Shown here one piece after another: positions 11,246 to 63,320 of a DNA stretch of 64,000 nucleotides (positions within the stretch are counted from its first letter, which is position 1; each line of letters opens with the position of its first letter). The notes under the pieces were generated by a model, which worked only from the letters and a program-made list of their open reading frames with translations, was not told the DNA's origin and ran no database searches. A program made the translations under genes and the position numbers. This DNA comes from Mycoavidus cysteinexigens (GTDB lineage: Bacteria; Pseudomonadota; Gammaproteobacteria; Burkholderiales; Burkholderiaceae), in assembly GCA_031963445.1 (NCBI GenBank), contig JASSUH010000002.1:78772-142771 (forward strand), read 5' to 3'.

Positions 11246-13660
11246 GTCGGGTAGCAGCAGTACATTACTGCACCACCGCCCCCTAAGAACTGTACGGGCG
11301 GGCTTTCCCCGCATACAGCTCAAGCCTTTCAAAGCCCCTTCTCGGGAGCCGGCTTCGTCACTTGTAAACCAAGGTTATGAATTTGCATGTGGCCAATTTG
11401 GAATGAACCATCACAAGGTTCCTTGACGCGTCGTTCCCTCCATCAACGCGGTCGGATAATGTGATGGACGTGCCACCCTGTTGTTTTTGTAAGCAGTTGG
11501 CGACACACGCAACAGCGGCGGTTCTGATCAAGCCATAAAGCGAATGAGCTTTTTGTAACCAGCAAGGTTTGCCCCGCATTTTCCGACCATGACGGTCTTC
11601 AAAGTAGTATTCCCATGCTGGGTCAAAAGGATTGGCTTCGGCTTTGATTTTTATGTGACGCTGAATCGGCTACGCCAGCGGCTAAGATGCAAGGTCTTCA
11701 TGATCGTTGCACCATCTGAGCGTTTTTCATCCGTCGGGGCTGCGAAGACCCAGCTCCGGTTCCGATGAAATGGAAATACCGGTGCTTTATCCAGCGGCCT
11801 CCCTTCTGAGTGTGCCTACGACGGCACCATTGCCACAACGCATGCCATATTGCGTTATCGACTTTGGAGAAGGTTTGCTTGGCGGCTACGTACTGGTGAT
11901 AGTTTGCCCATCCTTTGATGACAGGTTGAGTAAGCTAATCAAAATTGACTTGCCTGACTGCCTATTATCTTTAATGATTGAGCGAATTTTCGTCAGAACC
12001 GCTTGGATATTCTTTTTTGATGGTTTGATTAAAAACTTGCCGTTGTATTTACGGACGTTCTGACCTAAGAAATCGAATCCTTGTGCAATGTTTGTGATCC
12101 GGGTTTTCTCTGGTGATAGAGACAACCCTCTCTCACTCAGAAATTCTTTGATCACTGGTAACGCTTCATTTTCCAGTAACTCTTTTGAAGCTCCCGTAAC
12201 AATGAAGTCATCGCAATATCGCACAAGGTTAACTTTAGGATCGGTTCGACCGCCTTTGTAACTGACCTTGCCACAGGTCATTGCAAGTCGTTCTTGCAAA
12301 CCATCCCAACGTCATATTTGCAAGCACTGGTGAAATGATACTGCCCTGTGCTGCACCTTCTTCTGTTGGACAGAATCGTTGTTTTCCAGATATCCGGCTT
12401 TTAGCCACCGTCGCAGTATCTCCTTGTCTATCCGGAATATGTTCGATCAGCCAATCATGCGAAATTTTCTCAAAACAGGCTTGTATATCTGCCTCTAAAA
12501 ATCCACTGCGGCGAAACGCTTTTTAGCGAGTGTTATAAAGCACTGCTGAATCGCATCTGCTGTAGACCTTTCAGGGCGGAATCCGTAGGAATGCAGATCC
12601 GATTTTGTCTCCGAAATGGGCTGCCAGAGCCAACAGATATAAAGCTTGCTGGGCTCTGTCAATCATACTGGGAATGTCGAGCGTCTTTTCTTATTGCCAT
12701 TGCTTTTGGGTATGTAAATTCTACGCAGTGGCTTTGGTTTGTATCCGCGTCGCTTTAGTGTTTTGATAGCTTCGTATTTGGCGATTGGTGTCGACCATAT
12801 TGCCTTGTCTACCCCTGGCGTTTTCTTTCCTTGATTTTCAGTCACTCGTCTCACAGCAATTGCTTTGCCGCTGAACGAGTGGGTTAGTAACCACTGCAAA
12901 GCCTTTAACCTTACGGTGGTTACCTTCCTTCGTTGCCTTGACTATACGCACTTGCAGCTTTTTGACTTCTTGGTAACATTTGGCCCAGTTAATGCCGTGC
13001 CAGTGTTCCGCATAGCCGGAGGGCGCAACAGCACTTATTACATATGCCGACATCTGCTACCCTCCTAAAAAAAAATTTCTCAAGTTCTTTAGTCAAGAAA
13101 AGACCCGGTCGAATTGGGCCCCGTTTTCACGGGGAATAATCTTGCTGTTCAGCTCAATCCCTATCTGCTCCATTACAGAACAGCATGCTTTTTCGACCAT
13201 CCTTTACCCGCACCTCTATCGGTGTCCCTTGCGGTTCACTTTGCCTTAAAGGCAGAGATACGGGCTTACCGAGTTCCACGTTAGATACACGGATAGTTTA
13301 GGTCTTGCCTATCACCCGATGGTTTTCATATCCTCGTGCCCGCAATTATCATCAGACAACTTACCACTTACCTTTTGGTTCAAGCTTGTCAGCATCTTTA
13401 GCTTGTCAATACTTACGAGTTTTATCAGCAATTCACATACGTTGACCATGCTATCCAGCCTAGCGCCCCGACCATTTTGATGCTAACAGTCTTTGGTTTT
13501 GCCTCGCGGCTCTCCCTTCTCTTTCGAGGGGCTACATTGTCTTAAAAGCTTCTAACCCGATCATTGCTGGTCACGCTAGTTTTAATAGGCTACTGCCGGA
13601 GGAACGACAGGTTTCTCTTTACTTTTGAAACAATATCTAACGCGACTTTGCTCGTCGCAC
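11246..13660 (-). mobile_element. Decayed group II intron (ribozyme ends retained, IEP broken)
   Basis: The minus strand starts GUGCG at 13660. Domain V-like GAGCUGUAUGCGGGGAAAGCCCGCCCGUACAGUUC lies at 11287-11321. A domain VI-like stem ends ...CUACCCGAC at 11246. The ends parallel the intact copy at 30878..33315. Confidence 0.75.
11358..13053 (-). pseudogene. Group II intron reverse transcriptase/maturase, fragmented into at least four frames
   Basis: ORF fragments 12838..13053, 12663..12899, 11886..12299 (contains YCDDFIV) and 11358..11579 are colinear with the intact 573-aa IEP at 30951..32672. Confidence 0.85.
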
Positions 13661-25349: not shown

Positions 25350-25475
25350 TGTCGTAATAGCCGAAGTAATTAATAAGCCTGTTAATTTGGGGCTTTTCAG
25401 CTTATTCGATGTTTCAATAGCAAAAACCGCCTGGGCTGTTTCTCATTTTCAACCTTCCTCAAAAATACAAGCCTT

Positions 25476-25672
25476 AGGGCGCTTCCCCTTCGGGACCGGG
25501 CTGTCGCGCTGCGCGTCGAGCCTGTCTTCTCCAGTCTCGCTACATTCGTACATCCATCCCTAACGCACGCGCCTTTGGCGCTTCAACAACCTAGTTAGCC
25601 TTCGGCCCTATTGGGCCTCCAGATTAGCGCTCGCCGCGCTGCTTTTTGCGTCGGTGTCATGCAGGACATACC
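25476..25672 (+). repeat. Composite structured element, copy 1 (module A only, truncated at the start of the long hairpin)
   Basis: Aligns with 27478-27675. It breaks at CTAAATTGAC, which also occurs in the res candidate. Confidence 0.8.
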
Positions 25673-27117: not shown

Positions 27118-27477
27118 TTTTTTCTCTAAATTATTGAAACTTTACTTAGAAGAATAGGCAAAAATAGGTAAAAAATAATCCATTGTTTAACGGAAAGCCC
27201 AGAGCATCTGCAACTGGGTGGCTTCAAAAATCAATTGCAACCTGTTTAGCCAAACGAGCTTTCTGTAATTGTTGAGCCAAAGCTTGCGTATGGCCTCTCC
27301 GAATACGCCACTGACCGAGTTTCAATCGTCGTTAATTACATTCCTTCGATCAAAATATCTTTTCTTCATCGCAACACTTTAATAACAATAAAACATTGCA
27401 CTTGAAATTAGAGATTAAGCAGTATCAAACTTTCATCTTTCCCCTCAAAATCACCTCATTGTAGATAAAACCATCAT

Positions 27478-27969
27478 GGCGTTTCCCCTTCGGGGCCGGG
27501 CTGTCGCGCTGCGCGTCGAGCCTGTCTTCGCCAGTCTCGCTACATTCGTACATCCGTCCCTAACGCACGCGCCTTTGGCGCTTCAACCACCCAGTCAGAT
27601 TACGGCCCTGTTGGGCCTCCAGATCGGCGCTCGCCGCGCTGCTTTTTGCGTCGGCAGCCAGCCATGTAGGCCATACCACCGTCTTTCCTTAGTCACTCGT
27701 CTTATCCCGCGAACATAGCTCACCTGTTTTCCCTGTGCAATGGCCGCCCCGTTGGGGCTGAAACACTCACCCGTTCGGCGCAGCCTATGGCTGCGTCCGC
27801 ATGCGGCTTCCTGTTTCTCCATTGCACAGGGAAAACAGGCGGCTATTTTTATTCGCAGGACGAGCGACTAAGGAAAAACGGCGGCATGGCAGACCAATAC
27901 ATCTTGATACCTCAACAAAAAAATTGACAGCGGACTCACGATCTTGGAAGCCGGGCAGCTTTTAAAAAC
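27478..27969 (+). promoter_or_regulatory. Composite structured element, copy 2 (module A + ~230-nt hairpin 27661-27889 + conserved tail)
   Basis: Left arm GCCATG...CCTTAGTCACTCGTC...CTGTTTTCCCTGTGCAATGG pairs with CCATTGCACAGGGAAAACAG...GACGAGCGACTAAGG...CATGGC. Tail is ACCTCAACAAAAAAAT...ATCTTGGAAGCCGG...TTTTAAAAAC. Confidence 0.75.
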
Positions 27970-30802: not shown

Positions 30803-30877
30803 AGGGCGTTCCCCCGGCAAAGCCGGGGTCGGGCTTTCGCGCTACGCGTCGAGCCGGTCTACGCCAGTCTCGCCCCT
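30803..30877 (+). repeat. Composite structured element, copy 3, left part (interrupted by the group II intron)
   Basis: AGGGCGTTCCCCC...GCCAGTCTCGCCCCT is colinear with copy 4 up to the intron junction. Confidence 0.8.
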
Positions 30878-33315
30878 GTCGGGTAGCAGCAACCCATTAC
30901 TGAGTCACCGCCCCCAAAGAACGTAACGTGCAACTTTCGCTGCATTACGCTCAGGTATAACAAAAGTCTCGTTCTGAGACCGGCTTCATGATTTTCAAAT
31001 CAAGGCTGTGGACTTGGGCATGGCAGGTGGGATGGAGCAATACTCGATTGCTAAGAGCATCGGTGCCACCATTCATACGGTATTCAATATGATGATCATG
31101 CCAGCCGGTGTCGATATCCATCTCGAACGCACAGAGCGCACACAGGCCTTTTTGAGCTACGTATAGCTTGGCCCACTGGTATCGATAGCCATTATTTTTC
31201 AACAGGCGCTCCTGCCGGATGGTCTCACCATACATTTCCCATTCAGGATCATACGGATGGTATGTGTTCCTGACTTTCTTGTGTCGCTTGATGGGCGTAC
31301 TAGAAAGAGAGTACAGCTCTATGAGTCTCTGACTGCTTTTCTCTCGTTCCATTTCTGCTGCAAACACCCAATGCCGATTACCGACTTCATGCCAATATTT
31401 CTGGCGTATCCATCGACGATTTTTGTTTGGGTGTCTGCGACATGCCCAGCGCCAGAGCAGTCCAAACAAAAGCGATGCTATACGGGAGAATGATTGCTTG
31501 GCACTGGCTGGACGATGGTATTGAGCCCAACCCCGCAGTATAGGATTTAGCAATCGGATTAAATTTGATTGCTTAGCCCCTAAATTGTCGTTGATGACGT
31601 TCCTGATCTTTTCATAGAATGCTTGTGCATTTTTCTTACTTGGCTTGATGAGCAGTTTTTCCGAGTATTTACGGAAATGCCACCCAAGGAAATCGAATCC
31701 TTCATAGATAGATACGATACGTGTTTTGCTTGGAGAGAGTCGCAATCCTCGCTGAGCAAGAAAAGCTTCAATCCACGGTTTGATCTCAGTTTCCAGCACT
31801 TCTTTTGAGTTGCAGGTCACCACAAAATCGTCGCAATAACGTACTACACCCACTTTCTGTTTCCGAGTTTGGCCTACACCCCATTTTCCTTTTAAATGAG
31901 CAATGAGCTGTACTTCCAAACCATTCAACGTCCAATTGGCTGCCGCTGGTGAAATGATTCCTCCTTGCGGGACCCCCGCGGTGGTCTTTTGCCATTGCCC
32001 TCGATCAATGACCCCAGATGCCAGCCACTTGCGTAGCATCGATTTGTCCATGCAGACATTGTCTAGCATCCAGTCTCTTGAAATTTGATCAAAGAAGCCT
32101 TCAATGTCCGCATCTAGCACCCATTTAGCTGAGTTCTTTTTAGCCATTAGGATGAAGATTTGTTCCATCGCATCAGCGGTACAGCGGTTTTTCCTAAATC
32201 CATATGAATTTGGATCACTCACTGATTCCAAAACCGGGTCTAGAGCTAGCAGATAGAGTGCCTGCATAGCCCTGTCGCTCATGGTGAGTATGCCCAATGG
32301 GCGTTCTTTCCCATTTGACTTTGGGATGTAAACCCTTCGTACAGGTGAGGGTTTATACCGCTGCTTCTTTAATTGGGTAATAGCAGTGAACTTTTTCTGT
32401 GATGTATCCCACAGTTCATTGTCCACACCAGCCGTTTTTTTACCTTGATTTTCAGTCACTCGTTTAACTGCTAATGCTTTCGCACTAAACGAGCGAGTTA
32501 GCATCCGTTGTAGCGCTTTCACGCGACGCCATTTGCCACTCTGTGATGCCTTCGTTAAGCGACGCTGTACCACTCTCACATTCGTTTGTACTCGCTTCCA
32601 GTCAATGGAAGTCCAGTCTGTAGGAGTGTGCGAGGACGCAGAACCGATTGAAAGACTGTCGGTTACTCTCATGCTTTTCCTCGAATAATCGAAACCAACC
32701 GATTACGTAAGTGGCCTCAGTGGCTTACGACTGTTATACCCCGCAGAAGTGGGCACTCTTTCGAGCTGGGACAAAGTTTGAATCCCTATCCAGCGCATTA
32801 CACGCCAACCTTCGCTTTTTCTGCGATCCTCTGCCCGCTCCACCAACAGCGTCCCTTGCGGGTTACCTGCCACCTCTGATGATCAGAGGAGTGGCGGTGA
32901 ATCGGGTTTACCGCGTTCCACGTCAATGACACGAGTAGGGTAGGTTCTGCCTATTTGCCGATGGTCTTGTGGGTCCGTGTATTCCTAGTCCGAAAAGAAA
33001 TAACCGATCATGTGCCTTTTGGCTCAAGCCTGTCAGCGCTTTTGGCTTGTTGATTGTGACGACATTTATTAGCAGTTCACTTATATTAACCTTATTACCC
33101 AGCCTAGCACCTCATCCGCCTTTGCGCTGGCAGATAGCACCTCCCACTCACGAGGGATGTGCCGCTCTTATGAGCAGGTTACATTGTCACGGCGGCTCCA
33201 CACAGGGCCGTTACCAACCCTGCATGCGCCGATAGGCTACGACTGACGGAACAGTCGGTTTCTCTATCTGCCGTTAGGCAGATGAAACAATCATTGACGC
33301 AACTTCGCGTCGCAC
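30878..33315 (-). mobile_element. Intact group II intron (about 2.44 kb)
   Basis: The minus strand begins GUGCGACGCG at 33315. Domain V GAGCGUAAUGCAGCGAAAGUUGCACGUUACGUUC lies at 30919-30952. The domain VI stem ends ...CUACCCGAC at 30878. Joining the flanks recreates the uninterrupted sequence of copy 4. Confidence 0.9.
30951..32672 (-). CDS. Group II intron-encoded protein (RT - maturase - HNH endonuclease)
   Basis: RT motifs including YCDDFVV, a maturase X region, and C-terminal CALC...HHIEY...GG.D...N..LLHP.CH..VH (HNH). Confidence 0.95.
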   Translation of the reverse strand: MRVTDSLSIGSASSHTPTDWTSIDWKRVQTNVRVVQRRLTKASQSGKWRRVKALQRMLTRSFSAKALAVKRVTENQGKKTAGVDNELWDTSQKKFTAITQLKKQRYKPSPVRRVYIPKSNGKERPLGILTMSDRAMQALYLLALDPVLESVSDPNSYGFRKNRCTADAMEQIFILMAKKNSAKWVLDADIEGFFDQISRDWMLDNVCMDKSMLRKWLASGVIDRGQWQKTTAGVPQGGIISPAAANWTLNGLEVQLIAHLKGKWGVGQTRKQKVGVVRYCDDFVVTCNSKEVLETEIKPWIEAFLAQRGLRLSPSKTRIVSIYEGFDFLGWHFRKYSEKLLIKPSKKNAQAFYEKIRNVINDNLGAKQSNLIRLLNPILRGWAQYHRPASAKQSFSRIASLLFGLLWRWACRRHPNKNRRWIRQKYWHEVGNRHWVFAAEMEREKSSQRLIELYSLSSTPIKRHKKVRNTYHPYDPEWEMYGETIRQERLLKNNGYRYQWAKLYVAQKGLCALCAFEMDIDTGWHDHHIEYRMNGGTDALSNRVLLHPTCHAQVHSLDLKIMKPVSERDFCYT

Positions 33316-33728
33316 TCGGGCTTCAATCCCTAGCGCACGCGCCTTTGGTGCTTCAAAAACCTAATTAGCCTACGGCCCTGTCGGGCCTTCGTATGGGTGC
33401 TCGCCGCACAGCTTTTTGCGCCGGTGAATTATTTTTCATTTCCCGTCCTTCCTGAGTTCGTCACTTTACCTGAGACATTAGCCCGCCCCTTGGGACACTG
33501 CAAGGGCCGCCTTCGGCTGAAATGCAATCCCGTTCAGTGCTCGCCTACGGCTGTGCTCCGCGTGCGGCAAGGCATTTCTCCCTTGCAGTGTCCCAAGGGG
33601 TGGGCTAACGAAAACGCACAGCGACGAACTCAGGAAGGACGGGAAATGAAAAACAAATGCCAATTCCACCTCAACAAAAAAATCTTAGCTCAGCTCCGAA
33701 TCTTGGAATCCGGGAAGTTTTTAAAAAC
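33316..33728 (+). promoter_or_regulatory. Composite structured element, copy 3, right part (rest of module A + hairpin 33432-33653 + tail)
   Basis: TTTTTCATTTCCCGTCCTTCCTGAGTTCGTC pairs with GACGAACTCAGGAAGGACGGGAAATGAAAAA. The inner stem is CCCCTTGGGACACTGCAAGGG / CCCTTGCAGTGTCCCAAGGGG. The conserved tail is present. Confidence 0.8.
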
Positions 33729-33936
33729 TAAAACTATATTTTTTATTTTTTAAATAAAGGCTTTATGTATGAATAAAGAAAATGTTGAAAATAATAATTT
33801 ATAAAATACAGCAAAAGGAGGTCAGGTGAAAATATAAATTTTACTCTATATAGTTTATATAAAATTTAATTTCCGTTATGAAGAAAATATTAAAGCATCA
33901 GAATTTATGCTTGCGCTCAAGATAGGAGAAGATGAA

Positions 33937-34305
33937 ATGACTCAACGCATCTTAAAAACCTCAATAAATGAATGTGCTGTAAACGTCTTAATGGGTTGGG
34001 ACAGAGCCTTGCAGTATTATTTTATGGTAATTAATTACGTTGATAGCGATGATGAGCCGCTATACAGTAATCTTGATGATGACGACGCCGGTATAAATAT
34101 AAAAAATGAACTACCCTATTTTTTAAAAAAAGCTCGTTCATTTAATATCAAGATACCAGAAGCAATGATTGCCAGGTTACAAGCGGATAAGACATTGAAC
34201 CTTGGTAATGAAAAATCATTTTTTAATGAAGATTGCACAGAACCTACAATTAAATCCATGCTTAAAAAAATATTAAAAATATTTTTGAGGCCGATAGGTA
34301 TTTAA
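33937..34305 (+). CDS. Hypothetical protein; paralog of 8372..8806
   Basis: Starts MTQRILKTSIN after an AGGAG. See 8372..8806. Confidence 0.6.
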   Translation: MTQRILKTSINECAVNVLMGWDRALQYYFMVINYVDSDDEPLYSNLDDDDAGINIKNELPYFLKKARSFNIKIPEAMIARLQADKTLNLGNEKSFFNEDCTEPTIKSMLKKILKIFLRPIGI

Positions 34306-34437: not shown

Positions 34438-35220
34438 ATGAACCATTACGAAGAAAAACAAGCAGCTCGTAAAGCGCGACTTGAAGAATTGGCAATAAAA
34501 GCTGAAGAGCAAGCAGATAGCCTTAATAACCGAGCGAAAGAAATGGCTAGCGTAATCCCATTTGGTCAGCCCATTATCATCGGCCATCATTCAGAAGGTA
34601 CTGATCGCCGGTATCGCGCACGCATACATAATATGTTTCATAAGGCTTATGCGTTGCGTGAGAAAGCTGAAACCTATCAGGACAAAGCCTTGTCCGTTGG
34701 CAACGGGGGCATCTCATCCGATGACCCAGAGGCCATTATCAAGCTGCGTGAAAAGCTAACCAAACTTGAATCGATACAAGAAAAAATGAAGGAGGCGAAT
34801 AAGTTAGTGCGGCGTAAGGATCGCACAGGTTTAACGCAATTGGGATTTTCAGAAGAGTCTATTGATAAGTTGTTAATGCCAGACTTCTGTGGTCGTTTGG
34901 GTTTCCCTAAGTTTGAGCTACAAAACAACAACGCGAATATTCGACATATCAAATTGCGCATTCGGGCATTAGAAGAGCTAAGACAGCGTTCTGATAAGGA
35001 ATTGCAAGGTGATGGTTATATCTATAAAGAGGACGTGGAAGATAACCGCATTTTGTTTATTTTCCCTGGTAAGCCGGACGAGGCGACCCTTAGTATGTTG
35101 AAGCACCACTCTTTTAAGTGGAGTCAGAAACGTAAAGCCTGGGTACGGCAGCTAAATAACCGTGGCTTGTGGGTAGCTGAGCAAGTGAGAAAAATATTAG
35201 ATAACGCATCTCGTGATTGA
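34438..35220 (+). CDS. DUF3560-family protein (typical plasmid/ICE leading-region gene)
   Basis: The pattern ...RA.RL...A.KAE..A........A..IPFGQPI..GHHSE...RR......N...KA..L..KA..Y..KA......ISSDDP.AI.KLR.KL..LE..QE.MK..N matches my memory of DUF3560. Confidence 0.7.
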   Translation: MNHYEEKQAARKARLEELAIKAEEQADSLNNRAKEMASVIPFGQPIIIGHHSEGTDRRYRARIHNMFHKAYALREKAETYQDKALSVGNGGISSDDPEAIIKLREKLTKLESIQEKMKEANKLVRRKDRTGLTQLGFSEESIDKLLMPDFCGRLGFPKFELQNNNANIRHIKLRIRALEELRQRSDKELQGDGYIYKEDVEDNRILFIFPGKPDEATLSMLKHHSFKWSQKRKAWVRQLNNRGLWVAEQVRKILDNASRD

Positions 35221-35384
35221 TTTTTACAACAAGAAAAATACGAGAGCATGCAACTCACTTTAAAACGAAACGGCCTATCTCTTTCTGCTCTGTCAGTACT
35301 GCCTCTGCGGGGCTAACAGAGCAGAGTAGCTTAAATTTCATTTATATCTTTTTATCTCTCTCATTAATAAAAATCCTAAGTATT

Positions 35385-35882
35385 AGGGCGTTCCCCCTTC
35401 GGGGTCAGGCTTTCGCGCTGCGCGTCGAGCCTGACTACGCCAGTCTCGCCCCTTCGGGCTTCAATCCTTAACGCACGCGCCTTTGGCGCTTCAAAAACAT
35501 TAATCAGCCTACGGCCCTGTAGGGCCTCCGGATAGGCGCTTGCCGCGCGGCTGTTTGTATCGGTGGGTTGTAGTTTTTCATTTTCCGTCTTCCGTCTTCC
35601 TGAGTTCGTCACTTTATGTGCAAAGTTAGCGCACCCCTTTGGACACTACAAGGGCCGCCTTCGGCTGAAATTCAATCCCGTTCGGTGCGCGCCTACGGCT
35701 GTGCTCCGCGTGCGGCAATGAATTTCTCCCTTGCAGTGTCCAAAGGGGTGCGCTAACAAAAACGCACAGCGACGAACTCAGGAAGACGGAAAACGAAAAA
35801 TGAAAAACAAATGCCAATTCCACCTCAACAAAAAAATCTTTGATCAGCTCGAAATCTTGGAATCCGGAAATTTTTTAAAAAC
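35385..35882 (+). promoter_or_regulatory. Composite structured element, copy 4 (uninterrupted; hairpin 35575-35807; tail ends 22 nt before the next ATG)
   Basis: Near-identical to copy 3 over module A, the hairpin and the tail. Confidence 0.8.
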
Positions 35883-36815: not shown

Positions 36816-36985
36816 ATAATTAAATATATAAAAATTTACTGCTTGTAAATAAAAAATTTAGGCTAGTTATTATGCTAGTCTAAATTTGGTTTTCTAATTA
36901 CAAATATCTTTATCCACTTATGCCGAGAAATAATGTATAAACAAATTTTCTGTATATACGGGGCTGGCCCCGCACCCCTAAAAAT

Positions 36986-37082
36986 CGCTCACACACCACG
37001 CAACTAACGTTGCAGGCGTGAAACCCTCTATTGATAAGGGTTATAGCTGTCAGACACATAAATAACTCGTGTCAGACACATA
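36986..37082 (-). promoter_or_regulatory. Candidate oriT (TrwC/R388-type hairpin plus nic core on the minus strand, and accessory-protein repeats)
   Basis: The minus strand reads GCAAC-GTTA-GTTGC GTGGTGTGT|GAGCG (37013 to 36986). R388, from memory, reads GCACC-GAAA-GGTGC GTATTGTCT|ATAGC. Two direct TGTCAGACACATA repeats lie at 37049-37061 and 37070-37082. The IR AAACCCT...AGGGTT lies at 37021-37042. Confidence 0.55.
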
Positions 37083-37122: not shown

Positions 37123-37548
37123 ATGCCGAAGATAAAACGGATTAGAAAAAAGGATGATAATCGAGTGACGTTTCGGCTTGATGAAGATACACGGCAATTT
37201 TATAAAGCGGAGGCAGAGTCTCGTAATATCGATTTATCTGAATACATCCGTCAATCTGTGATGCGTGGCTTGATTAGTGATAATGCTGAAAAAATTCAAG
37301 AAAACTTTATATATATAACTTCTAAGTTTCTAGAAGAATTTATAGATACAGCTTCTAAGGTTCAAGAAAACGGGAAGAATGTACAAGCCGCTATTCCTGA
37401 TGAGGTAATACGATCTATTTTTACTATTGAAGAAATACTTAAAAAATTAGTATTAAGTGAGAATATACAAGCCTACTATAAAGTAAAAGATAATGCGCAA
37501 GCTAGGTTGGAAGAACTTAAAAGTGAATCAAATAGCGTGATTGAGTGA
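37123..37548 (+). CDS. Ribbon-helix-helix relaxosome accessory protein (TrwA/TraY/MobC-like)
   Basis: The N-terminal basic arm is followed by RVTFRLDEDTRQFYKAEAESRNIDLSEYIRQSV (RHH pattern). The gene lies immediately beside the oriT candidate. Confidence 0.6.
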   Translation: MPKIKRIRKKDDNRVTFRLDEDTRQFYKAEAESRNIDLSEYIRQSVMRGLISDNAEKIQENFIYITSKFLEEFIDTASKVQENGKNVQAAIPDEVIRSIFTIEEILKKLVLSENIQAYYKVKDNAQARLEELKSESNSVIE

Positions 37549-40137: not shown

Positions 40138-41880
40138 GTGATAAAGCGTGATGGACGGGGAAATATAGGCAGTCTCTCACGTGGCACGGAACTGTGGCTC
40201 AATCAAGCTCGATTTTTTCTCGCCGCATTCAAAGCTATTTTGATAGTTGCTGTGCTGTCAGGTATATCAACTATCGGTATTTTTTCCTGGAAGACTATCA
40301 CGCCCAATGAACGCTATGCGGTAGAGCGCTATGTGCTTGCACAGGCGCTAGAGGGGTTGCCTATAGCGAACGATAAGATGGATTTAAATGTCAATGGACG
40401 TCTTTATCAGCTGGAAGCCAAGAAAGTCGTTTATTTGACAGAGCCAATGATCAATGAAGTACTGCAAAAACTTCAAAAGGCTTGTTTATGGGGACTATGC
40501 GCAGCGTTGGGCGCTGGATTGGTGGCTGCCTACTTGTGGTGGCGCTATGGCAAGCAAAAAATCACCGATAAACGATTGCGCGGGGCGCAATTAGTTAAAG
40601 GCGCGGAATTAACGAGCTTAATGCGCTCGCGCTCGGATGCTAGTCCTTACCTGATTGCAGGTGTACCCATGCGTCGTGATGCTGAAATGCTGCATAGTTT
40701 ATTTTGCGGCGCACCAGGTACAGGTAAGTCCCAACAATTTTTTGCCTTGATGCGGCAAATTCGTGCACGGGGTAAGCGCATGATTGTGTATGACCCAACC
40801 GGAGAATACACACAGGCTTTTTACCGCGAGGGCAAAGATATTCTGATGAACCCATTAGATGTTAGAAGCCCAAATTGGACTATTTGGCATGAAATTGAGA
40901 AGAACTACCACTTTGACAATATTGCCAGCGGGTTGATGCCTGATCCCATTAAAGATGACCCATTCTGGGTAAAAGCGGGGCGCATGGTGCTTAAAGAAGT
41001 CTTTCGGGCATTAGGCGAGGCAGGAAAGCGTACAAACGGAGATTTATATCAAGCCATTGCTAATAGCAATTTGCAAGAAATGTATACGTTATTGAAAGAT
41101 ACACCAGGCTCAACGTATGTTGATCCGCTCACTGAGCGTACAGGTATGTCAATCAAAATGACGGTGCAAAATCAATTGGAATCGTTTCGTTTTTTGCATG
41201 ATGAAGGCGAGCCTTTTTCAATTCGGCAGTGGGTACAAGAAGAGAGTGATACTTGGATGTTCATTACGGCCCGTGAATCGCTGCGTGAAGCGCTAAAACC
41301 TGTGCTTTCACTTTGGGTCGATATTGCGATTAAAGCAGTATTGGATCTGAGTCCGATTCACCAGGAGCGTCTTTGGTTTGCACTAGATGAATTACCAACG
41401 CTACAAAAGCTCGATATTTTGAAATTAGCGATCACAAATGGCCGAAAGTATGGCTTATGTTTCGCGTTGGGCATGCAAGACTTGCCTCAGCTTTACGCTA
41501 TTTACGGGCAAGAATTCGCTAAAACCATCATTTCAAGTTGCCAAACCAAATTATTGCTACGAGTGACAGATGGTGAAGCCGCTAAGATGATGTCAAAACT
41601 GATGGGGCAGGTAGAAGTCGATGAAAAAGAAGAAACGTTTAACTATGGTCTAAATAGCCATCGGGACGGGGTGAGTGTGTCAGCGCGCCGAGCGATGCGT
41701 GACATTGTTCTTCCTTCAGAAATTCTGACTTTGCCTGATATGGCAGGCTATTTAATGGCGCCTGGCGACTACCCGATAGCCAAGGTAAGTTACCCTTATG
41801 TACCTATACAAAAAATAGCAGAGGGATTCATCGAGCGCACTCAATTTGATGTGAATTTTGAATCAATGCTTGCTGTTTAA
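40138..41880 (+). CDS. traD: Type IV coupling protein (TraD/TrwB/VirD4 family)
   Basis: N-terminal TM helices, Walker A GAPGTGKSQ and Walker B WFALDELP. GTG start. Confidence 0.9.
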   Translation: MIKRDGRGNIGSLSRGTELWLNQARFFLAAFKAILIVAVLSGISTIGIFSWKTITPNERYAVERYVLAQALEGLPIANDKMDLNVNGRLYQLEAKKVVYLTEPMINEVLQKLQKACLWGLCAALGAGLVAAYLWWRYGKQKITDKRLRGAQLVKGAELTSLMRSRSDASPYLIAGVPMRRDAEMLHSLFCGAPGTGKSQQFFALMRQIRARGKRMIVYDPTGEYTQAFYREGKDILMNPLDVRSPNWTIWHEIEKNYHFDNIASGLMPDPIKDDPFWVKAGRMVLKEVFRALGEAGKRTNGDLYQAIANSNLQEMYTLLKDTPGSTYVDPLTERTGMSIKMTVQNQLESFRFLHDEGEPFSIRQWVQEESDTWMFITARESLREALKPVLSLWVDIAIKAVLDLSPIHQERLWFALDELPTLQKLDILKLAITNGRKYGLCFALGMQDLPQLYAIYGQEFAKTIISSCQTKLLLRVTDGEAAKMMSKLMGQVEVDEKEETFNYGLNSHRDGVSVSARRAMRDIVLPSEILTLPDMAGYLMAPGDYPIAKVSYPYVPIQKIAEGFIERTQFDVNFESMLAV

Positions 41881-43039: not shown

Positions 43040-45868
43040 ATGATTAGCCTAAATAATGTAGGAAGCGCAGGGCAGGCGCTGCATTATTTCTCAAAAGATA
43101 ATTACTACACAAAACAAGATGGCTTAGCGCATTCTGAGTGGTTTGGTAAAGGCGCAATACGCTTAGGTTTGACAGGGAAAATCGAGCAGCAGCCTTTCCT
43201 CAATCTCTTGCGCGGCAAAATAGAAAATCAGCAATTAGGAAAATGGGTCAGAAATCTTGAAACAGGCGAGAAAGAGCGTCAGCATCGACCAGGTATTGAT
43301 GTCACCTTTTCTGCACCTAAGAGCGTGTCGATTTTGGCAGAAATCTTTGGGCAACAGGATGTGCGAGAGGCCCACGAAGCAGCAGTTAAAGAAGCACTGA
43401 CTTATATTGAAAAAAATCTGATTGCGACGCGCATTACTCAGAACAGAGAGACCACAGTAGTAAAGACCAGCAATATGATGGTGAGCTTATTTCGCCACAA
43501 TACTAGCCGAGACTTAGATCCCCAAACGCATACGCATGCCGTCATTATGAACGCCACTTTATGCGAGGATGGGCAATGGCGCTCGTTGATGAACGATGAC
43601 ATTTACCGTGCGCAAGGCGTCATAGGGGCGATCTATACCTCTGCGCTGGCAGAAAAATTACAAACACTAGGTTACGCATTAGAACGCACGGATGCGCGTG
43701 GCAATTTTGAAATTGCAGGTGTTAATCATGAGCAACTTGCGCATTTCTCTCAAAGACGCGCACAAATCACTGCTGCGTTAGAGGCAAAGGGCATTTCCAT
43801 TCAAGAAGCCAGCGCGCAACAAAAAGAAGACGCCACGCTTAAAACTCGCTCCCATAAAAAATCCGTAGATCATGACGTTTTAATGGAGGAATGGCAAACA
43901 CGCGCCCAAAACATGGGAATCGATTTTCAATCCATTCAAGACAGAGCGCAATCCAATCAAAAAGAGCAGGTCTCAACCCGTGATAATCCGTTGACTGGCT
44001 TACAGGCCATGCAATTCGCTGTTGAGCATTTGGGTGAACGCGAAGCAGTATTTTCTCCGTTAGATTTAATGGAGACGGCTATCCAGCACAGTGTGGGCCG
44101 TACGTCTCCAGAGGATGTAGAGCAGGCTTTTGCACACTTGGAGGATATCGGGGAGCTAATTGCATTACCTAATGACCAATACACTACCAAACGCATGTTT
44201 CATAGCGAGAAGCGTACTCTCGACCAAATACTTGTGCAACAAGGACAAGTAGTTCAAATCATGACGCCAGAAACCGTAACAAAGCGGATTGTACTGGCAG
44301 AGCAGCAACAACGTATAACCTTCACACCAGGTCAAAAGGATGCAATTCGTCAAACGCTAGCAACGGAAGATCGGTACGTCGCTATACAGGGTTTAGCAGG
44401 AACGGGCAAAACCACCATGTTAAACGCGCTGCGGGAAATAGCGACTGAACAAGGCTATACCGTGCGCGGCATGACTCCTACGGGTGCGGCTAGTAAAGTT
44501 TTGGCGCTGTCTACAAAGATACATGCTGATACTGTCCATATGTTCCTCATCCGTGAAAAAAGGTTACAAAAGGATATCGACTTTGCTAAGCAGTACGCGC
44601 CTCATTTTGTGCGAAAAAGTGAATTGTGGATTATCGATGAAAGTTCTTTTTTGTCGCAGTATCAAAAAGAGGCGATTGATAAGACTGCGTTAAAAGCAGG
44701 GGCGAGAGTTGTATACGTTGGCGATATGTTGCAGTTGCAGGCCGTAGAGGCCGGTAAGCCTTTTGAGTTGGCACAAAAAAACGGTATCGAAACGGCCTAT
44801 ATGACAGAAATAAGCCGACAAAAAAGCAAAACCTTAAAGCGAGCGGTGGATATCGTAGTCGGTCGGGATCAATTACAAGAAGGACAGCGTTTAACTCAGA
44901 TTGAATTGAATCGTAATACGCATGCTTTTTCCTATATGGATAAAGTCGGTATGGTCTATGAAGTGGAATCAGAGTTAATAAAGGCGGTCGCTAATTGTTA
45001 TCTCAATTTGGAACCTGCAAAACGAGAGCGCACGATTGTATTTACCGCTTTTAATAAAGATAGAGTAGAGATCAATGAAGGAATACGTGAAGGGTTAAAA
45101 GAATTGGGGGAGTTGGCGTCGCACGAAAAAAAATGTGAAATCCTGGTCTCCAAAGGCTGGACACGAGCCAAGATTAAAGAAGCCCAATATTACACAAAAG
45201 GCGATGTGGTGCGCTTTGGCCGTGATTACAAAAGTATGAATATTAAAAAGGGCGAATATGCACGTGTATATTCTGTCATTGAGAAATCAGGTTCCCTTGT
45301 ACTGCAAAAATCAGATAATAAAGCGCTTACTTGGACACTTCGGAAGCATAATAAGCTTGAAGTGTACGACGCTGAAACCCGCCCTCTGGCCGTTGGGGAC
45401 TTAATCCGTTTTACCCGAAATGGGGAAGTATGTAAAAACGGAGAAGTTGCGCGTGTGAAAAACATAACTGACCAAAAAGCCTCTCTAGAGCTTTGCCGAG
45501 ATGCAGCCCCCTCTTTATATGAAGTGGATCTCTCAAAGTCCTGTCATTGGGATCACGCATACGCCGTCACCGTTCATAGTGCGCAGGGAAGTACCCAGGA
45601 GCGAGCTATTTTTCATATTGATATCAAGCAAGATGAAAAACGCTCGGAAAAAGCGGAATTAGCGCAAATGGCAAAAATATTTGGCGCACGTAGTTTTTAC
45701 GTTGGCGTGACGCGAGCAAGCCATGCGTTAAGGATTTATACGAATGACAAAGAAAAAGCAGAAAAAGCAATCTGTGCTCGTCTAGATAAGACTAGCGTAA
45801 TAGAGACTATGCAAAATCATGAGAAAACACGGACCTCTATACAGAAGCAACAAGGGATGAATAGATAA
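43040..45868 (+). CDS. traI: MOBF relaxase-helicase (TrwC/TraI family)
   Basis: The N-terminus is colinear with my recollection of TrwC (A..YF...NYY.K......W.GKGA..LGL.G; DVTFSAPKSVS; FRHNTSRDLDPQTHTHAVIMN). Helicase Walker A is GLAGTGKTT. Confidence 0.92.
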   Translation: MISLNNVGSAGQALHYFSKDNYYTKQDGLAHSEWFGKGAIRLGLTGKIEQQPFLNLLRGKIENQQLGKWVRNLETGEKERQHRPGIDVTFSAPKSVSILAEIFGQQDVREAHEAAVKEALTYIEKNLIATRITQNRETTVVKTSNMMVSLFRHNTSRDLDPQTHTHAVIMNATLCEDGQWRSLMNDDIYRAQGVIGAIYTSALAEKLQTLGYALERTDARGNFEIAGVNHEQLAHFSQRRAQITAALEAKGISIQEASAQQKEDATLKTRSHKKSVDHDVLMEEWQTRAQNMGIDFQSIQDRAQSNQKEQVSTRDNPLTGLQAMQFAVEHLGEREAVFSPLDLMETAIQHSVGRTSPEDVEQAFAHLEDIGELIALPNDQYTTKRMFHSEKRTLDQILVQQGQVVQIMTPETVTKRIVLAEQQQRITFTPGQKDAIRQTLATEDRYVAIQGLAGTGKTTMLNALREIATEQGYTVRGMTPTGAASKVLALSTKIHADTVHMFLIREKRLQKDIDFAKQYAPHFVRKSELWIIDESSFLSQYQKEAIDKTALKAGARVVYVGDMLQLQAVEAGKPFELAQKNGIETAYMTEISRQKSKTLKRAVDIVVGRDQLQEGQRLTQIELNRNTHAFSYMDKVGMVYEVESELIKAVANCYLNLEPAKRERTIVFTAFNKDRVEINEGIREGLKELGELASHEKKCEILVSKGWTRAKIKEAQYYTKGDVVRFGRDYKSMNIKKGEYARVYSVIEKSGSLVLQKSDNKALTWTLRKHNKLEVYDAETRPLAVGDLIRFTRNGEVCKNGEVARVKNITDQKASLELCRDAAPSLYEVDLSKSCHWDHAYAVTVHSAQGSTQERAIFHIDIKQDEKRSEKAELAQMAKIFGARSFYVGVTRASHALRIYTNDKEKAEKAICARLDKTSVIETMQNHEKTRTSIQKQQGMNR

Positions 45869-49564: not shown

Positions 49565-50605
49565 AATTGGATCAGTACCACTCCTTTTCCTGGAGGCAAA
49601 TGTAAGTTGGATAACAACAATTATCAGACTTGACAGAATTTTTTATCTCTCCCCCAACGCAGCACATAGCAGCTCGCTCACCACCAAGCCTCTTAAACGC
49701 AGCAGCAGTGGGCGGTTGGGTGCCTACGCCTGTACGCCGACACCGAGGGGCCTTCCTCATCTCTTGTGCAGCATGGCTGCTCTGAAGTTTTCCTCCTTCT
49801 TCGCGCCTTCGCGGCACACTATTGCTCATGCAGTTTTATAGTGACAAATAATATTCGCCATTACGAGCGAATCGACGCCCCCTTTGCTATTAGATAACTG
49901 GGTATTCTGATAGAAGCAGGGCAGATACACAATTTTCTGGCTTTATATCGACTTGATGACGTTAAAAACATTAAAAGAAAAGGGGAGAATGTTTATTCTA
50001 ATCTGCTGTAGATGTGGCCAAGTCATTAGAACAGGGCGAAAAATTGGTCTGAGCAGATGCTATAAATTGGAGAAAAAATGCAAAATATAAAAATAGCTGT
50101 GCTAGGCCACAACGCCGCTTAGGGTTAAATCCGTAATTTTTTAATAATCCTATTGAGAAGCAGGTAAAAATCGCTCTGCTTAGCTTGCTCTCTTTTGAGA
50201 AAAATCCGACATTAAGCACATGCCGAAAAATTAAACGAACGCTGTACGTTCTAAATGGGCTCAGATTGTTAACTTTACATAAAGGATGGGTCCGCCATCA
50301 GGCGTCTCAGTCTGATGGAAATCCAGAGGATAAAGAAGGTGTGCAAGCTGTACCCCAAAATTTACTCTCTTGTGATTTTCCTTAACTCGGCAGGTGAGCA
50401 GCTAAAAGTGGGGTCACAAAACCCGCGCCCACGCGGGCTAAAGTGGCGATTAATGTATCAAAGGAGCATTTGGTGAAAAAAGGATGCTTGTTCTGCATCC
50501 TTTTAGATTGTGTTCTTTGTAAAAGTAGCCGATCCTTTTTAGTAGCACGAAGATATTGGGGTTTCGGCATCTCGTCAAGATTTAATGATAAGGAGCAATG
50601 CCATC

Positions 50606-63117: not shown

Positions 63118-63320
63118 TCGACTTGCTGCTGAAACAACGGCAGCTTGGGTTTAGTCGCCCAAATGCTTAAGACTTGGTTTTGCTTCTATGGCGGAACCTT
63201 GTGGGGAAGCCTTCGGGCTTGCCGTTTCTTAAGTGACGGTCGACTAACCCTGCTTGGTTCCGCCACCTTTTGTTTAGTCGCAAAGGGTAGCGGGGAATAG
63301 ACCCACTTAAGGAGCAAGCC

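What the first reader, a model, noticed from the sequence alone, without database searches (positions are those of the whole stretch)
30803..33728. Intact group II intron homed into module A of the repeated element; a near-identical empty site exists in copy 4
Removing 30878-33315 joins ...GCCAGTCTCGCCCCT to TCGGGCTTCAATCC.... That junction is the uninterrupted sequence found in copy 4 at 35441-35465, with the junction equivalent at 35453/35454. The intron has canonical ends (GUGCG ... AC), a good domain V with the AGC triad and a GAAA loop, and an uninterrupted RT-maturase-HNH ORF, so it looks active. Yet the paralogous site 4.6 kb away is unoccupied. Copies 1 and 2 differ at the target (CTCGCTACATTCGTACATCC). 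The intron sits on the strand opposite to the leading-region genes, inside a segment proposed to act as structured ssDNA or RNA. Insertion may therefore disable that copy, or it may exploit single-stranded DNA exposed during transfer.
Basis: partly seen in the sequence, partly recalled or inferred. Interest (0 to 1): 0.6.

Follow-up and report, generated by a model that had tools for sequence, protein, structure and literature searches.

The report
Mobile intron in plasmid leading-region repeat
A complete, apparently working group II intron has recently copied itself twice into the best-conserved spot of a repeated non-coding element in a conjugative plasmid's leading region. The matching sites it has not entered differ at one base that this type of intron's protein is known to read.

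Summary
Window 30878-33315 (minus strand, 2438 nt) is a full-length group II intron. It has GUGCG...AC ends, Rfam domain I and V/VI matches, a bulged branch A, and a 573-aa RT/maturase/HNH ORF. Deleting it restores the sequence of copy 4 at 35453/35454.

It is a subgroup IIB1 / chloroplast-like-1 type intron. I mapped EBS1, EBS2, EBS2a and EBS3, each supported by covariation in relatives.

New facts:
- A second, 100% identical copy sits at the same position of another diverged repeat on the same plasmid. The flanks are only 75-81% identical, so homing was recent.
- The two empty sites (copy 4 and one on a second plasmid) are the best RNA-recognition matches in the whole genome. Both carry A at -15, whereas both occupied sites carry G.
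- The intron's RT has Glu at the residue that published work links to G at -15. This gives a specific reason for the empty sites.
- The target is the most conserved core of an element found in IncN (CUP-like), IncF and many Burkholderiaceae plasmids.
- An unrelated IIB1 intron occupies the homologous IncF element 4 nt away, in the same orientation.

Verdict: a new member of a known kind, with an unusual and recurrent homing niche.

The parts
30878..33315 (-). Full-length group II intron, 2438 nt, subgroup IIB1 / CL1-like
   Evidence: Ends GUGCG...AC. Deleting it restores the empty-site sequence exactly. Rfam D1D4-7 and Intron_gpII match at full model length.
30951..32672 (-). Intron-encoded protein, 573 aa, with RT, maturase (X), DNA-binding and HNH endonuclease domains. 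The RT motif is YCDD. Glu170 is equivalent to Th.e.I3 residue 173.
   Evidence: Pfam RVT_N, RVT_1, GIIM and HNH. The best solved-structure match is the Th.e.I3/T.el4h RT, 6me0_C, E 1.6e-171 over the full length. YCDD is shared by all copies of the Mycoavidus lineage.
32988..32993 (-). EBS1, 5'-UCGGAC (intron 323-328), in an 11-nt loop. It pairs with IBS1 GCCCGA with one A.C mismatch at -5.
   Evidence: The homologous loop covaries with the 5' exon in the chromosomal copy (GAACAG/CUGUUC) and in loci L001, L020 and L051.
33052..33058 (-). EBS2, 5'-CAAUC (intron 260-264), plus EBS2a C258
   Evidence: EBS2 pairs with IBS2 GAUUG (-13..-9) and EBS2a pairs with G-14. Covariation is seen in the chromosomal copy (UAAGC/GCUUA) and in L020. 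The layout is as described for IIB1 introns.
32953..32953 (-). EBS3, U363, pairing with +1 A
   Evidence: This column reads U,G,G,U,G against +1 bases A,C,U,A,C in five related introns.
30879..30952 (-). Domain V (30919-30952; AGC triad, GAAA loop) and domain VI (30879-30917; bulged branch A at 30884)
   Evidence: RNA fold z-score -5.5. Rfam RF00029 scores 55.9 bits.
33316..33333 (-). 5' exon recognition region: IBS1 33316-33321, IBS2 33324-33328, IBS2a 33329, and G-15 at 33330
   Evidence: Read directly from the sequence.
30803..30877 (-). 3' exon, which is the left half of the interrupted module A (copy 3). Position +1 is A, at 30877.
   Evidence: Alignment of the eight module-A copies in the genome.
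33316..33440 (+). Right half of the interrupted module A (copy 3), followed by the intact hairpin module (33448-33675) and the promoter-proximal module (33639-33729)
   Evidence: Repeat families D3, D5 and D7 and the module-A alignment.
35434..35473 (-). Empty homing site in copy 4, with the junction at 35453/35454. It is identical to the occupied site from -14 to +19. Position -15 (35468) is A and -18 is T.
   Evidence: It is one of the two top-scoring RNA-recognition sites in the whole genome, at 12 of 13 positions.
36985..37015 (-). Predicted MOBF oriT hairpin and nic on the minus strand. This makes the minus strand, which is the intron sense strand, the transferred strand.
   Evidence: The sequence GCAACGTTAGTTGC-GTGGTGTGT|G lies on the minus strand. 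The genes for the TrwA-like protein, TrwB and TrwC lie downstream on the plus strand. The assignment is an inference by analogy with R388.

Best explanation
This is a functional or very recently functional subgroup IIB1 group II intron of the chloroplast-like-1 (CL1) protein lineage.

**Expected mechanism (inferred, not shown here).** The spliced intron RNA and its RT/maturase/endonuclease protein form a particle that finds its DNA site mainly by base pairing:
- EBS1 UCGGAC pairs with GCCCGA (-6..-1), with one A.C mismatch at -5.
- EBS2 CAAUC pairs with GAUUG (-13..-9).
- EBS2a C258 pairs with G-14.
- EBS3 U363 pairs with A+1.
- The protein reads a purine at -15. Glu170 predicts G.

The RNA then reverse-splices into the strand carrying these bases. 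The HNH domain nicks the other strand, and the RT copies the intron in.

**Target.** The site lies in the 4-nt loop of the third hairpin of a conserved four-way-junction element (module A). This element belongs to a repeated leading-region unit of a MOBF conjugative plasmid and is related to the IncN CUP repeats and to an IncF leading-region repeat.

**History in this genome.**
- The intron has homed at least twice on this plasmid: into copy 3 in the window and into a fifth copy at contig C2:19197-21634.
- The two remaining sites with full RNA complementarity (copy 4, and one on the 71-kb plasmid C3) are most likely poor substrates because they carry A at -15 instead of G.
- Insertion splits module A 2.4 kb apart on the strand of the leading genes, where the intron is antisense and cannot be spliced out. 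It leaves the downstream hairpin and promoter-proximal modules and the downstream genes intact.
For: **Anatomy**
- Searches give the ends, domain I and V/VI matches, the bulged branch A and the complete four-domain ORF.

**Class**
- The best solved-structure relative is the IIB1/CL1 Th.e.I3 RT, E 1.6e-171.
- The intron has a 5-bp EBS2 at -13..-9 plus EBS2a/-14, as defined for IIB1.

**Pairing elements**
- EBS1, EBS2 and EBS3 covary with the exons in five related introns that sit in unrelated sites.

**Recent mobility**
- Two copies are identical over 2438/2438 nt, while their flanks are 74.5% and 81.1% identical. The differences start at -7 and +6.

**Specificity**
- In a genome-wide scan, the module-A sites are the best matches to the 13 RNA-read positions. 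No perfect site exists.

**Position -15**
- Occupied sites have G and G. Empty sites have A and A.
- The RT residue aligned to Th.e.I3 G173 is Glu170.
- Monachello et al. 2021 report that G-15 correlates with Glu and A-15 with Ser/Ala. They also report that -15 is a stringently read position in EcI5, Th.e.I3 and TeI3c/4c.
- Of 15 sampled module-A copies with a full IBS match, 13 have G-15. The only two with A-15 are this genome's empty sites.
- Lineage copies with Glu sit at G-15 in 5 of 6 sites.
- The independent IncF intron has Glu and G-15.

**Target conservation**
-.
Against: - Splicing, expression and ongoing homing are therefore unshown.
- No convincing minus-strand promoter lies upstream of the intron.
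- EBS1 has an internal A.C mismatch, and the second occupied site also has an EBS2 mismatch at -10. Pairing is therefore not optimal.
- The RT motif is YCDD rather than the usual YADD. It is nevertheless shared by copies at several different sites.
- The -15 argument rests on four sites in this genome. A perfect association has a 1-in-6 chance of arising by accident.
- The two empty sites are close relatives of each other (92% and 84% identical flanks), so they may count as one event.
- One lineage member (L002) has Glu but A at -15.
Confidence: 0.72

Rival explanations
1. The empty sites are good substrates that simply have not been hit yet. This could be because intron expression is low, or because insertions there are removed by selection. 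Both empty sites are the last repeat before oriT on their plasmids. The -15 difference is incidental.
For: Both empty sites occupy the same position, the repeat next to the DUF4942 gene adjacent to oriT, on two related plasmids. They are close paralogues. No upstream promoter was found for the intron. The sample is only four sites.
Against: Position -15 is a stringently read position in three studied IIB1 introns. The Glu/G-15 rule predicts exactly the observed pattern. A-15 is otherwise absent from the sampled family of matching sites.
Confidence: 0.25
2. The intron invades the transferred (T) strand while it is single-stranded during conjugation. It would use the incoming or displaced strand as target and the nascent complementary strand as primer. 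The leading-region repeat would then be a niche chosen for its single-strandedness.
For: The intron sense strand is the predicted T strand. An independent IIB1 intron in an IncF leading region has the same orientation: antisense to the leading genes, in the homologous element, 4 nt away. In an evolution experiment, a group II intron moved into the leading region of an incoming IncI plasmid (PMC10104558). Retrotransposition into single-stranded DNA is established for other introns.
Against: Orientation is fixed by the target sequence, so two cases carry little weight. The IEP has a complete HNH endonuclease domain. The EBS2a-IBS2a pair, thought to drive duplex unwinding, is kept, which fits ordinary double-strand retrohoming. 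IBS1 overlaps the hairpin stem, so the folded single strand would hide the site rather than present it. The T strand at the second occupied site is unknown.
Confidence: 0.15
3. The intron is no longer mobile. The two identical copies arose by recombination or gene conversion between repeat copies, not by retrohoming.
For: The repeats are recombination-prone by nature, and repeat-mediated rearrangements are described for IncN CUP elements. No direct evidence of activity exists.
Against: A conversion tract would have to end exactly at both intron boundaries, because the flanks differ from -7 and from +6 onward. All ribozyme and protein motifs are intact, whereas the 84% chromosomal copy has a broken ORF.
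Confidence: 0.06

Closest known systems
Th.e.I3 (T.el4h) of Thermosynechococcus elongatus, subgroup IIB1 with a CL1 reverse transcriptase (PDB 6ME0)
   Same: The protein aligns over its full length, E 1.6e-171. The target-reading scheme is the same: EBS1, a 5-bp EBS2, EBS2a/-14, EBS3/+1 and protein contact at -15.
   Different: Residue 173 is Gly in Th.e.I3 (target A-15) and Glu here (target G-15). The host, target and genomic niche are different. The RT motif here is YCDD.
EcI5 of E. coli plasmid pO157 (IIB1/CL1, highly mobile, used as a targetron)
   Same: It is a plasmid-borne IIB1 intron with an endonuclease domain. Its critical distal positions -18, -17, -15 and -14 lie immediately upstream of IBS2. 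The only consistent difference between occupied and empty sites here falls in that same stretch.
   Different: EcI5 reads A-15/A-14, whereas this intron's sites have G-15/G-14. No sequence comparison with EcI5 itself was run here.
IIB1 intron in the leading region of IncF plasmid pESA134_1 of Escherichia albertii (NZ_CP070285.2; locus L128 4395-6744)
   Same: It sits in the homologous conserved element, in the same orientation (antisense to the leading genes), with perfect EBS1 and EBS2 matches. Its RT has Glu and its target has G-15.
   Different: The IEP is only 49.7% identical. The insertion point is 4 nt upstream, at the base of the hairpin rather than in the loop. This junction is present in only 12 plasmid records, against 4556 that carry the element.
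CUP (conserved upstream) repeats of the IncN leading region (pKM101/R46; Delver and Belogurov 1997, cited)
   Same: An IncN plasmid carries four copies of module A upstream of leading-region genes. Each is identical to the occupied target from -17 to +12.
   Different: That these IncN matches are the published CUP elements is my inference from position and copy number. ArdK binding and promoter function were not tested. The plasmid here adds a long hairpin module between module A and the gene.
Class C (IIC) and attC-associated group II introns, which recognise DNA stem-loops
   Same: The insertion point lies in a conserved small hairpin.
   Different: IIC introns lack EBS2, insert downstream of the stem-loop and have no endonuclease domain. 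This intron has EBS2/EBS2a and an HNH domain, inserts inside the loop, and its IBS1 overlaps the stem.

Membership tests
Group II intron (self-splicing ribozyme with intron-encoded protein) | 5' GUGYG and 3' AY boundaries that restore a continuous host sequence when removed | tested here: met
   The ends are GUGCG...AC. The joined exons equal the empty-site sequence.
Group II intron (self-splicing ribozyme with intron-encoded protein) | Domain V with the catalytic AGC triad, and domain VI with a bulged branch adenosine | tested here: met
   Rfam RF00029 scores 55.9 bits over the full model. The fold shows AGC, a GAAA loop and a bulged A 7 nt from the 3' end.
Group II intron (self-splicing ribozyme with intron-encoded protein) | An ORF in domain IV encoding RT plus maturase domains | tested here: met
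   RVT_N, RVT_1 and GIIM in an uninterrupted 573-aa ORF.
Subgroup IIB1 / CL1 lineage | IEP most similar to CL1 reverse transcriptases | tested here: met
   The best solved relative is the Th.e.I3 RT, E 1.6e-171, which is described as IIB1/CL1. No phylogenetic tree with all nine lineages was built.
Subgroup IIB1 / CL1 lineage | 5-bp EBS2-IBS2 at -13..-9, plus an EBS2a-IBS2a Watson-Crick pair at -14 with EBS2a two nt upstream of EBS2 | tested here: met
   CAAUC pairs with GAUUG, and C258 pairs with G-14. Covariation is seen in the chromosomal copy and in L020.
Subgroup IIB1 / CL1 lineage | EBS3-IBS3 pair for the first 3'-exon base | tested here: met
   U363 pairs with A+1. The column covaries across five introns.
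Subgroup IIB1 / CL1 lineage | C-terminal DNA-binding and endonuclease domain | tested here: met
   Pfam HNH at residues 511-556, E 1.3e-7.
Currently mobile (retrohoming-competent) intron | Identical copies at homologous sites whose flanks have diverged | tested here: met
   2438/2438 nt identical against 74.5% and 81.1% identical flanks.
Currently mobile (retrohoming-competent) intron | Conserved RT active site YADD | tested here: inconclusive
   The motif is YCDD. The two aspartates are kept. The variant is shared by lineage copies at several different sites, which argues that it works.
Currently mobile (retrohoming-competent) intron | Splicing in vivo and new insertions in populations | not testable with these tools
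Structure-dependent (IIC / attC-type) targeting | No EBS2, insertion after a recognised stem-loop, and no endonuclease domain | tested here: not met
   EBS2/EBS2a and HNH are present, and the insertion lies inside the loop.
IncN CUP-type leading-region repeat (the target element) | Repeated conserved sequence upstream of leading-region genes of conjugative plasmids | tested here: met
   There are 8 copies in this genome and 4 per IncN record. It is found in 501 plasmid records and in 54 of 401 Burkholderiaceae genomes.
IncN CUP-type leading-region repeat (the target element) | ArdK-dependent promoter function | not tested
   Known only from the literature on IncN.

The most novel reading that the evidence does not exclude
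The conserved leading-region repeat shared by IncN, IncF and Burkholderiaceae MOBF plasmids is a recurrent, portable homing niche for IIB1 group II introns. The introns always enter in the sense of the transferred strand, which suggests invasion of the incoming single strand during conjugation. Single-base variants at the protein-read position -15 act as immunity alleles that protect the repeat nearest oriT. If so, this Mycoavidus intron would be predicted to home into IncN-type repeats, which match its site from -17 to +12.
Probability: 0.15. Interest if true: 0.65.

Novelty: new member of a known kind. Interest (0 to 1): 0.42.

Why it matters
By itself this is one more bacterial IIB1 intron. 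Three points give it some value.

1. It is a natural test of the proposed rule that RT residue 173 reads target position -15. Within one genome there are four sites with equal RNA complementarity, and they split by -15 into occupied (G) and empty (A). The rule has so far been supported only by phylogenetic correlation and unassigned cryo-EM density.

2. The homing site is the most conserved core of a non-coding element shared by leading regions of very different conjugative plasmids. Two unrelated introns use it. This makes the element a vehicle for intron spread, and it makes intron presence a marker of plasmid history.

3. Both introns sit in the sense of the transferred strand. This makes the old question of whether conjugative single-stranded DNA is a substrate for intron invasion testable with a defined natural site.

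Tried and rejected
- **Relatives in the same element.** I looked for close relatives of the intron in module A in other genomes. Relatives in Mycoavidus, Oxalobacteraceae, Cupriavidus, Ralstonia and on six plasmids sit in unrelated sites. The lineage as a whole is therefore not specialised for module A.
- **Exact exon/intron junction elsewhere.** Among 401 Burkholderiaceae genomes, only the window's own genome has it. The metagenome scan gave four exact pattern hits. All four are unrelated sequences with no module A and no intron.
- **Locus L100.** The module-A match stops near the insertion point, but this is a truncated element followed by a gene, not an intron insertion.
- **A perfect ancestral site.** I searched this genome for a site with GUCCGA. 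None exists.
- **Glu/Ser versus -15 outside the Mycoavidus lineage.** I tried to test the correlation in the Oxalobacteraceae and Cupriavidus relatives, whose RT has Ser or Ala. Their 5' ends do not begin with GUGYG at the expected distance, so I could not place the splice sites. This test was abandoned.
- **Promoter scan.** The scan for a minus-strand promoter upstream of the intron was uninformative: 6 sites found against 6.6 expected.
- **Strand of the module-A structure.** The strand on which module A folds could not be decided. Apart from one conserved terminal G.U pair, G.U counts do not favour either strand.
- **Accession JN232517.** This record (pHN7A8, an IncF33 plasmid with a leading-region intron) is not in the plasmid collection.
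- **IIC-like recognition.** I considered structure-dependent, IIC-like recognition of the hairpin and rejected it (see membership test).
Full report
**1. Observation**

The window is part of a 192-kb plasmid, contig C2:78772-142771, in a 2.93-Mb genome with five contigs. Relatives of the intron protein place the organism in or near Mycoavidus, an endofungal member of the Burkholderiaceae.

The stretch 30878-33315, read on the minus strand, starts GTGCGACGCG and ends CTACCCGAC. Rfam finds group-II-D1D4-7 at 33108-33258(-) with 117.8 bits. It finds the domain V/VI model at 30878-30954(-) with 55.9 bits. Both match the full model length. The 3' end folds into a domain V with the AGC triad and a GAAA loop. 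Domain VI has a bulged A 7 nt from the end. The z-score is -5.5.

The ORF 30951-32672(-) is uninterrupted at 573 aa and has RVT_N, RVT_1, GIIM and HNH domains. Removing the 2438 nt gives ...CCAGTCTCGCCCCT|TCGGGCTTCAATCC.... This is the sequence of copy 4, with the junction at 35453/35454. No other register is possible.

**2. Class and target recognition**

The protein aligns over its full length with the reverse transcriptase of Th.e.I3/T.el4h (PDB 6ME0), E 1.6e-171. That intron is described as subgroup IIB1 with a chloroplast-like-1 RT.

I aligned domain I of this intron with five relatives that sit in unrelated sites. These were an 84%-identical chromosomal copy at C1:1767701-1770144 and loci L001, L002, L020 and L051 from other Mycoavidus assemblies. 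Three short variable patches covary with each intron's own exons:

- **EBS1** is UCGGAC (intron 323-328, window 32988-32993), in an 11-nt loop. The chromosomal copy has GAACAG there against its exon CUGUUC. L020 has UUCUUC against GAAGAA.
- **EBS2** is CAAUC (260-264, window 33052-33056), pairing with GAUUG at -13..-9. The chromosomal copy has UAAGC against GCUUA. L020 has AAUAG against CUAUU.
- **EBS2a** is C258, two nucleotides upstream of EBS2. It pairs with G-14, exactly as defined for IIB1 introns by Monachello et al. 2021.
- **EBS3** is U363 (window 32953). This column reads U,G,G,U,G against +1 bases A,C,U,A,C.

Against the module-A site, EBS1 has one internal A.C mismatch at -5. All other pairs are Watson-Crick. 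In a scan of the whole genome for the 13 RNA-read positions, the module-A sites are the best matches at 12 of 13. No perfect site exists. Module A is therefore the real homing site, although slightly imperfect.

**3. Evidence of recent mobility**

A second copy of the intron lies on the same plasmid outside the window, at C2:19197-21634. It is identical over all 2438 nt. It sits at exactly the same position of a fifth, diverged copy of module A.

The flanks of the two occupied sites are only 74.5% identical on the 5' exon side and 81.1% on the 3' exon side. Differences begin at -7 and +6. Duplication followed by divergence cannot explain this. Gene conversion would need tracts ending precisely at both splice sites. 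Retrohoming is the simple explanation.

The chromosomal 84% copy has a broken ORF with a longest frame of 389 aa.

The RT active-site motif is YCDD rather than YADD. The same variant occurs in lineage copies at several different sites, so it appears compatible with mobility.

**4. Why the paralogous site is empty**

The genome has eight module-A copies, five on C2 and three on the 71-kb plasmid C3.

| Group | Copies | Site sequence |
|---|---|---|
| Different hairpin | Copies 1 and 2, and one on C3 | GCTACATTCGTAC; not targets |
| Extra loop base | One on C3 | Not a target |
| IBS pattern present | Copy 3, copy 5, copy 4, and C3 at about 24979 | Candidate targets |

Of the four candidate targets, copy 3 and copy 5 are occupied. 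Copy 4 and the C3 site are empty and are identical to copy 3 from -14 to +19.

The only difference that separates occupied from empty sites is position -15. It is G in both occupied sites and A in both empty ones. Position -18 does not separate them, because occupied copy 5 has T like the empty sites.

In the IIB1 introns studied experimentally, -15 is a critical position read by the protein. This holds for EcI5, Th.e.I3 and TeI3c/4c. Monachello et al. also report a covariation: G at -15 goes with Glu at RT residue 173 (Th.e.I3 numbering), and A goes with Ser or Ala. They place the -15 base next to residues 173 and 176 in the cryo-EM map.

In the alignment with 6me0_C, chain residues 173 (G) and 176 (F) fall where the paper says they do. 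The residue of this protein aligned to 173 is Glu170, in the motif ADAMEQIF. The protein is thus predicted to prefer G-15, which matches the occupied sites and not the empty ones.

Further support:

- Among 41 distinct module-A sequences sampled from this genome, other Burkholderiaceae and an IncN plasmid, 15 have the full IBS pattern. Of these, 13 have G-15. The two with A-15 are exactly the two empty sites of this genome.
- Lineage members with Glu sit at G-15 in five of six sites. L002 is the exception. L001 has Gln with G-15.

The numbers are small, and the two empty sites are close relatives of each other. I therefore give this explanation about even odds. It is nonetheless specific and directly testable.

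**5. The target element and its setting**

The surrounding genes are those of a MOBF transfer region:

- a TrwA/NikA-like gene at 37123;
- the coupling protein at 40138;
- the TrwC relaxase at 43040;
- an SSB, DUF4942 and DUF3560 genes and HEAT-repeat genes on the plus strand, upstream of a candidate oriT.

On the minus strand at about 37015-36985 lies a hairpin followed by GTGGTGTGT|G. This resembles the R388 nic region as I recall it.

With the leading genes all pointing toward oriT, the minus strand is the predicted transferred strand. The intron is therefore in the sense of the T strand and antisense to the leading genes.

Module A is widespread:

- A 517-nt query from copy 4 finds 501 plasmid records, mostly conjugative. 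They include IncN plasmids with four copies each in the leading region.
- 54 of 401 Burkholderiaceae genomes have it.
- The stretch GTCTCGCCCCTTCGGGCTTCAATCCCTAACGC, which contains the whole recognition site, is its most conserved part.
- The IncN copies are identical to the occupied site from -17 to +12.

From their position and number, I infer that the IncN copies are the CUP repeats described for pKM101/R46.

An alignment of 40 copies supports a four-way junction with compensatory changes in the closing stem and in all three hairpins. The intron sits in the middle of the 4-nt loop of the third hairpin. I could not decide which strand folds.

Because IBS1 overlaps the hairpin stem, the hairpin is not a recognition feature in the way it is for IIC introns.

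**6. A second, independent intron in the same element**

The IncF plasmid pESA134_1 of Escherichia albertii carries a IIB1 intron in its leading region. The intron lies between the oriT-proximal genes and the antirestriction and methylase genes, and it is antisense to them. Its protein is 49.7% identical to the one here.

Its boundaries are L128:4395-6744. The joined exons align with module A. The insertion point is 4 nt upstream of the one used here. Its EBS1 (GCUUCC) and EBS2 (CCCUG) match its exon perfectly. Its RT also has Glu, and its site has G at -15.

The 5'-exon element occurs in 4556 enterobacterial plasmid records with 2-3 copies each. The intron junction occurs in 12.

The literature notes group II introns as presence/absence polymorphisms in IncF33 leading regions. 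It also reports an intron moving into the leading region of an incoming IncI plasmid during experimental evolution. I found no analysis of the target element itself.

The more distant relatives of the present intron are not in module A. The element therefore looks like a niche colonised repeatedly rather than the ancestral home of the lineage.

**7. Consequences of the insertion**

On the plus strand the intron is antisense and cannot be removed. Any function of module A as plus-sense RNA or as DNA is therefore split 2.4 kb apart in copies 3 and 5. The long hairpin module (33448-33675), the promoter-proximal module and the downstream ORFs (33907-34305, 34438-35220) are intact.

No clear minus-strand promoter lies upstream of the intron. 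How it is expressed is unknown.

**8. What could not be done**

Splicing, expression and heterogeneity of the empty sites remain untested. The exact-junction searches in 401 family genomes and in metagenomes found no further occupied sites.

**9. Verdict**

This is a real, intact and recently mobile IIB1/CL1 group II intron. It is a new member of a known kind. Three things lift it above routine:

- the natural four-site contrast at -15, which fits a recently proposed protein-DNA recognition rule;
- a homing site that is the conserved core of a leading-region repeat shared across plasmid families;
- an independent second intron in the same element and orientation.

The single-strand invasion idea remains a minority hypothesis.

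Noticed in passing
window 11246-13660 (-); also C2:11915-14503 and C2:180642-183316: A second group II intron family of the same Rfam D1D4-7 type has three 98-99% identical copies on the plasmid. Similarity extends about 140 nt beyond both intron ends, so the intron lies inside a larger repeated unit. The window copy has no long ORF (longest 137 aa), whereas the copy at C2:12143-13858 encodes an intact 571-aa IEP.
   Followed up: partly
window 49653-49758 (-): A third group II intron domain I match (group-II-D1D4-2, 57.9 bits) has no domain V match nearby. It may be a fragment or an ORF-less intron.
   Followed up: no
window 63184-63270 (+): A full-length match to the C4 antisense RNA family (68.6 bits), known from P1/P7-type phage immunity regions, lies on this conjugative plasmid.
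   Followed up: no
window 32163-32165 and the YCDD motif in ORF 30951-32672 (-): The RT active-site motif is YCDD instead of YADD in every copy of the Mycoavidus intron lineage examined. More distant relatives all have YADD.
   Followed up: partly
window 30803-30877 + 33316-33440, 35374-35500, 25465-25654, 27465-27654: The module-A core folds as a four-way junction with compensatory changes in all four stems across 40 copies from Burkholderiaceae and IncN plasmids. It is about 83% identical between this plasmid and enterobacterial IncN plasmids, which is unusually high for non-coding DNA. The strand and the molecule (RNA or single-stranded DNA) that fold are undecided.
   Followed up: partly
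L115 (contig C3:20000-36000): The 71-kb plasmid C3 carries a parallel MOBF leading region with three module-A copies, none interrupted. Its genes encode TrwB, a NikA-like protein, three DUF4942 proteins, an SSB and a ParB-like protein.
   Followed up: partly
L114 (contig C2:12000-30000): The second occupied module A lies between an AbiEii/KfrB-domain gene and a HEAT-repeat gene. It is near a TraG-type coupling protein and an ArdC-like gene with KfrB domains. This is a second transfer-related region on the same plasmid.
   Followed up: partly
L003-L031 (Oxalobacteraceae, Cupriavidus and Ralstonia relatives): Relatives with 60-73% identical IEPs show no GUGYG at the expected distance upstream of the domain I match. 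Many have GAGCG followed by a GNRA hairpin instead, so their 5' splice sites may be non-canonical or lie further upstream.
   Followed up: no
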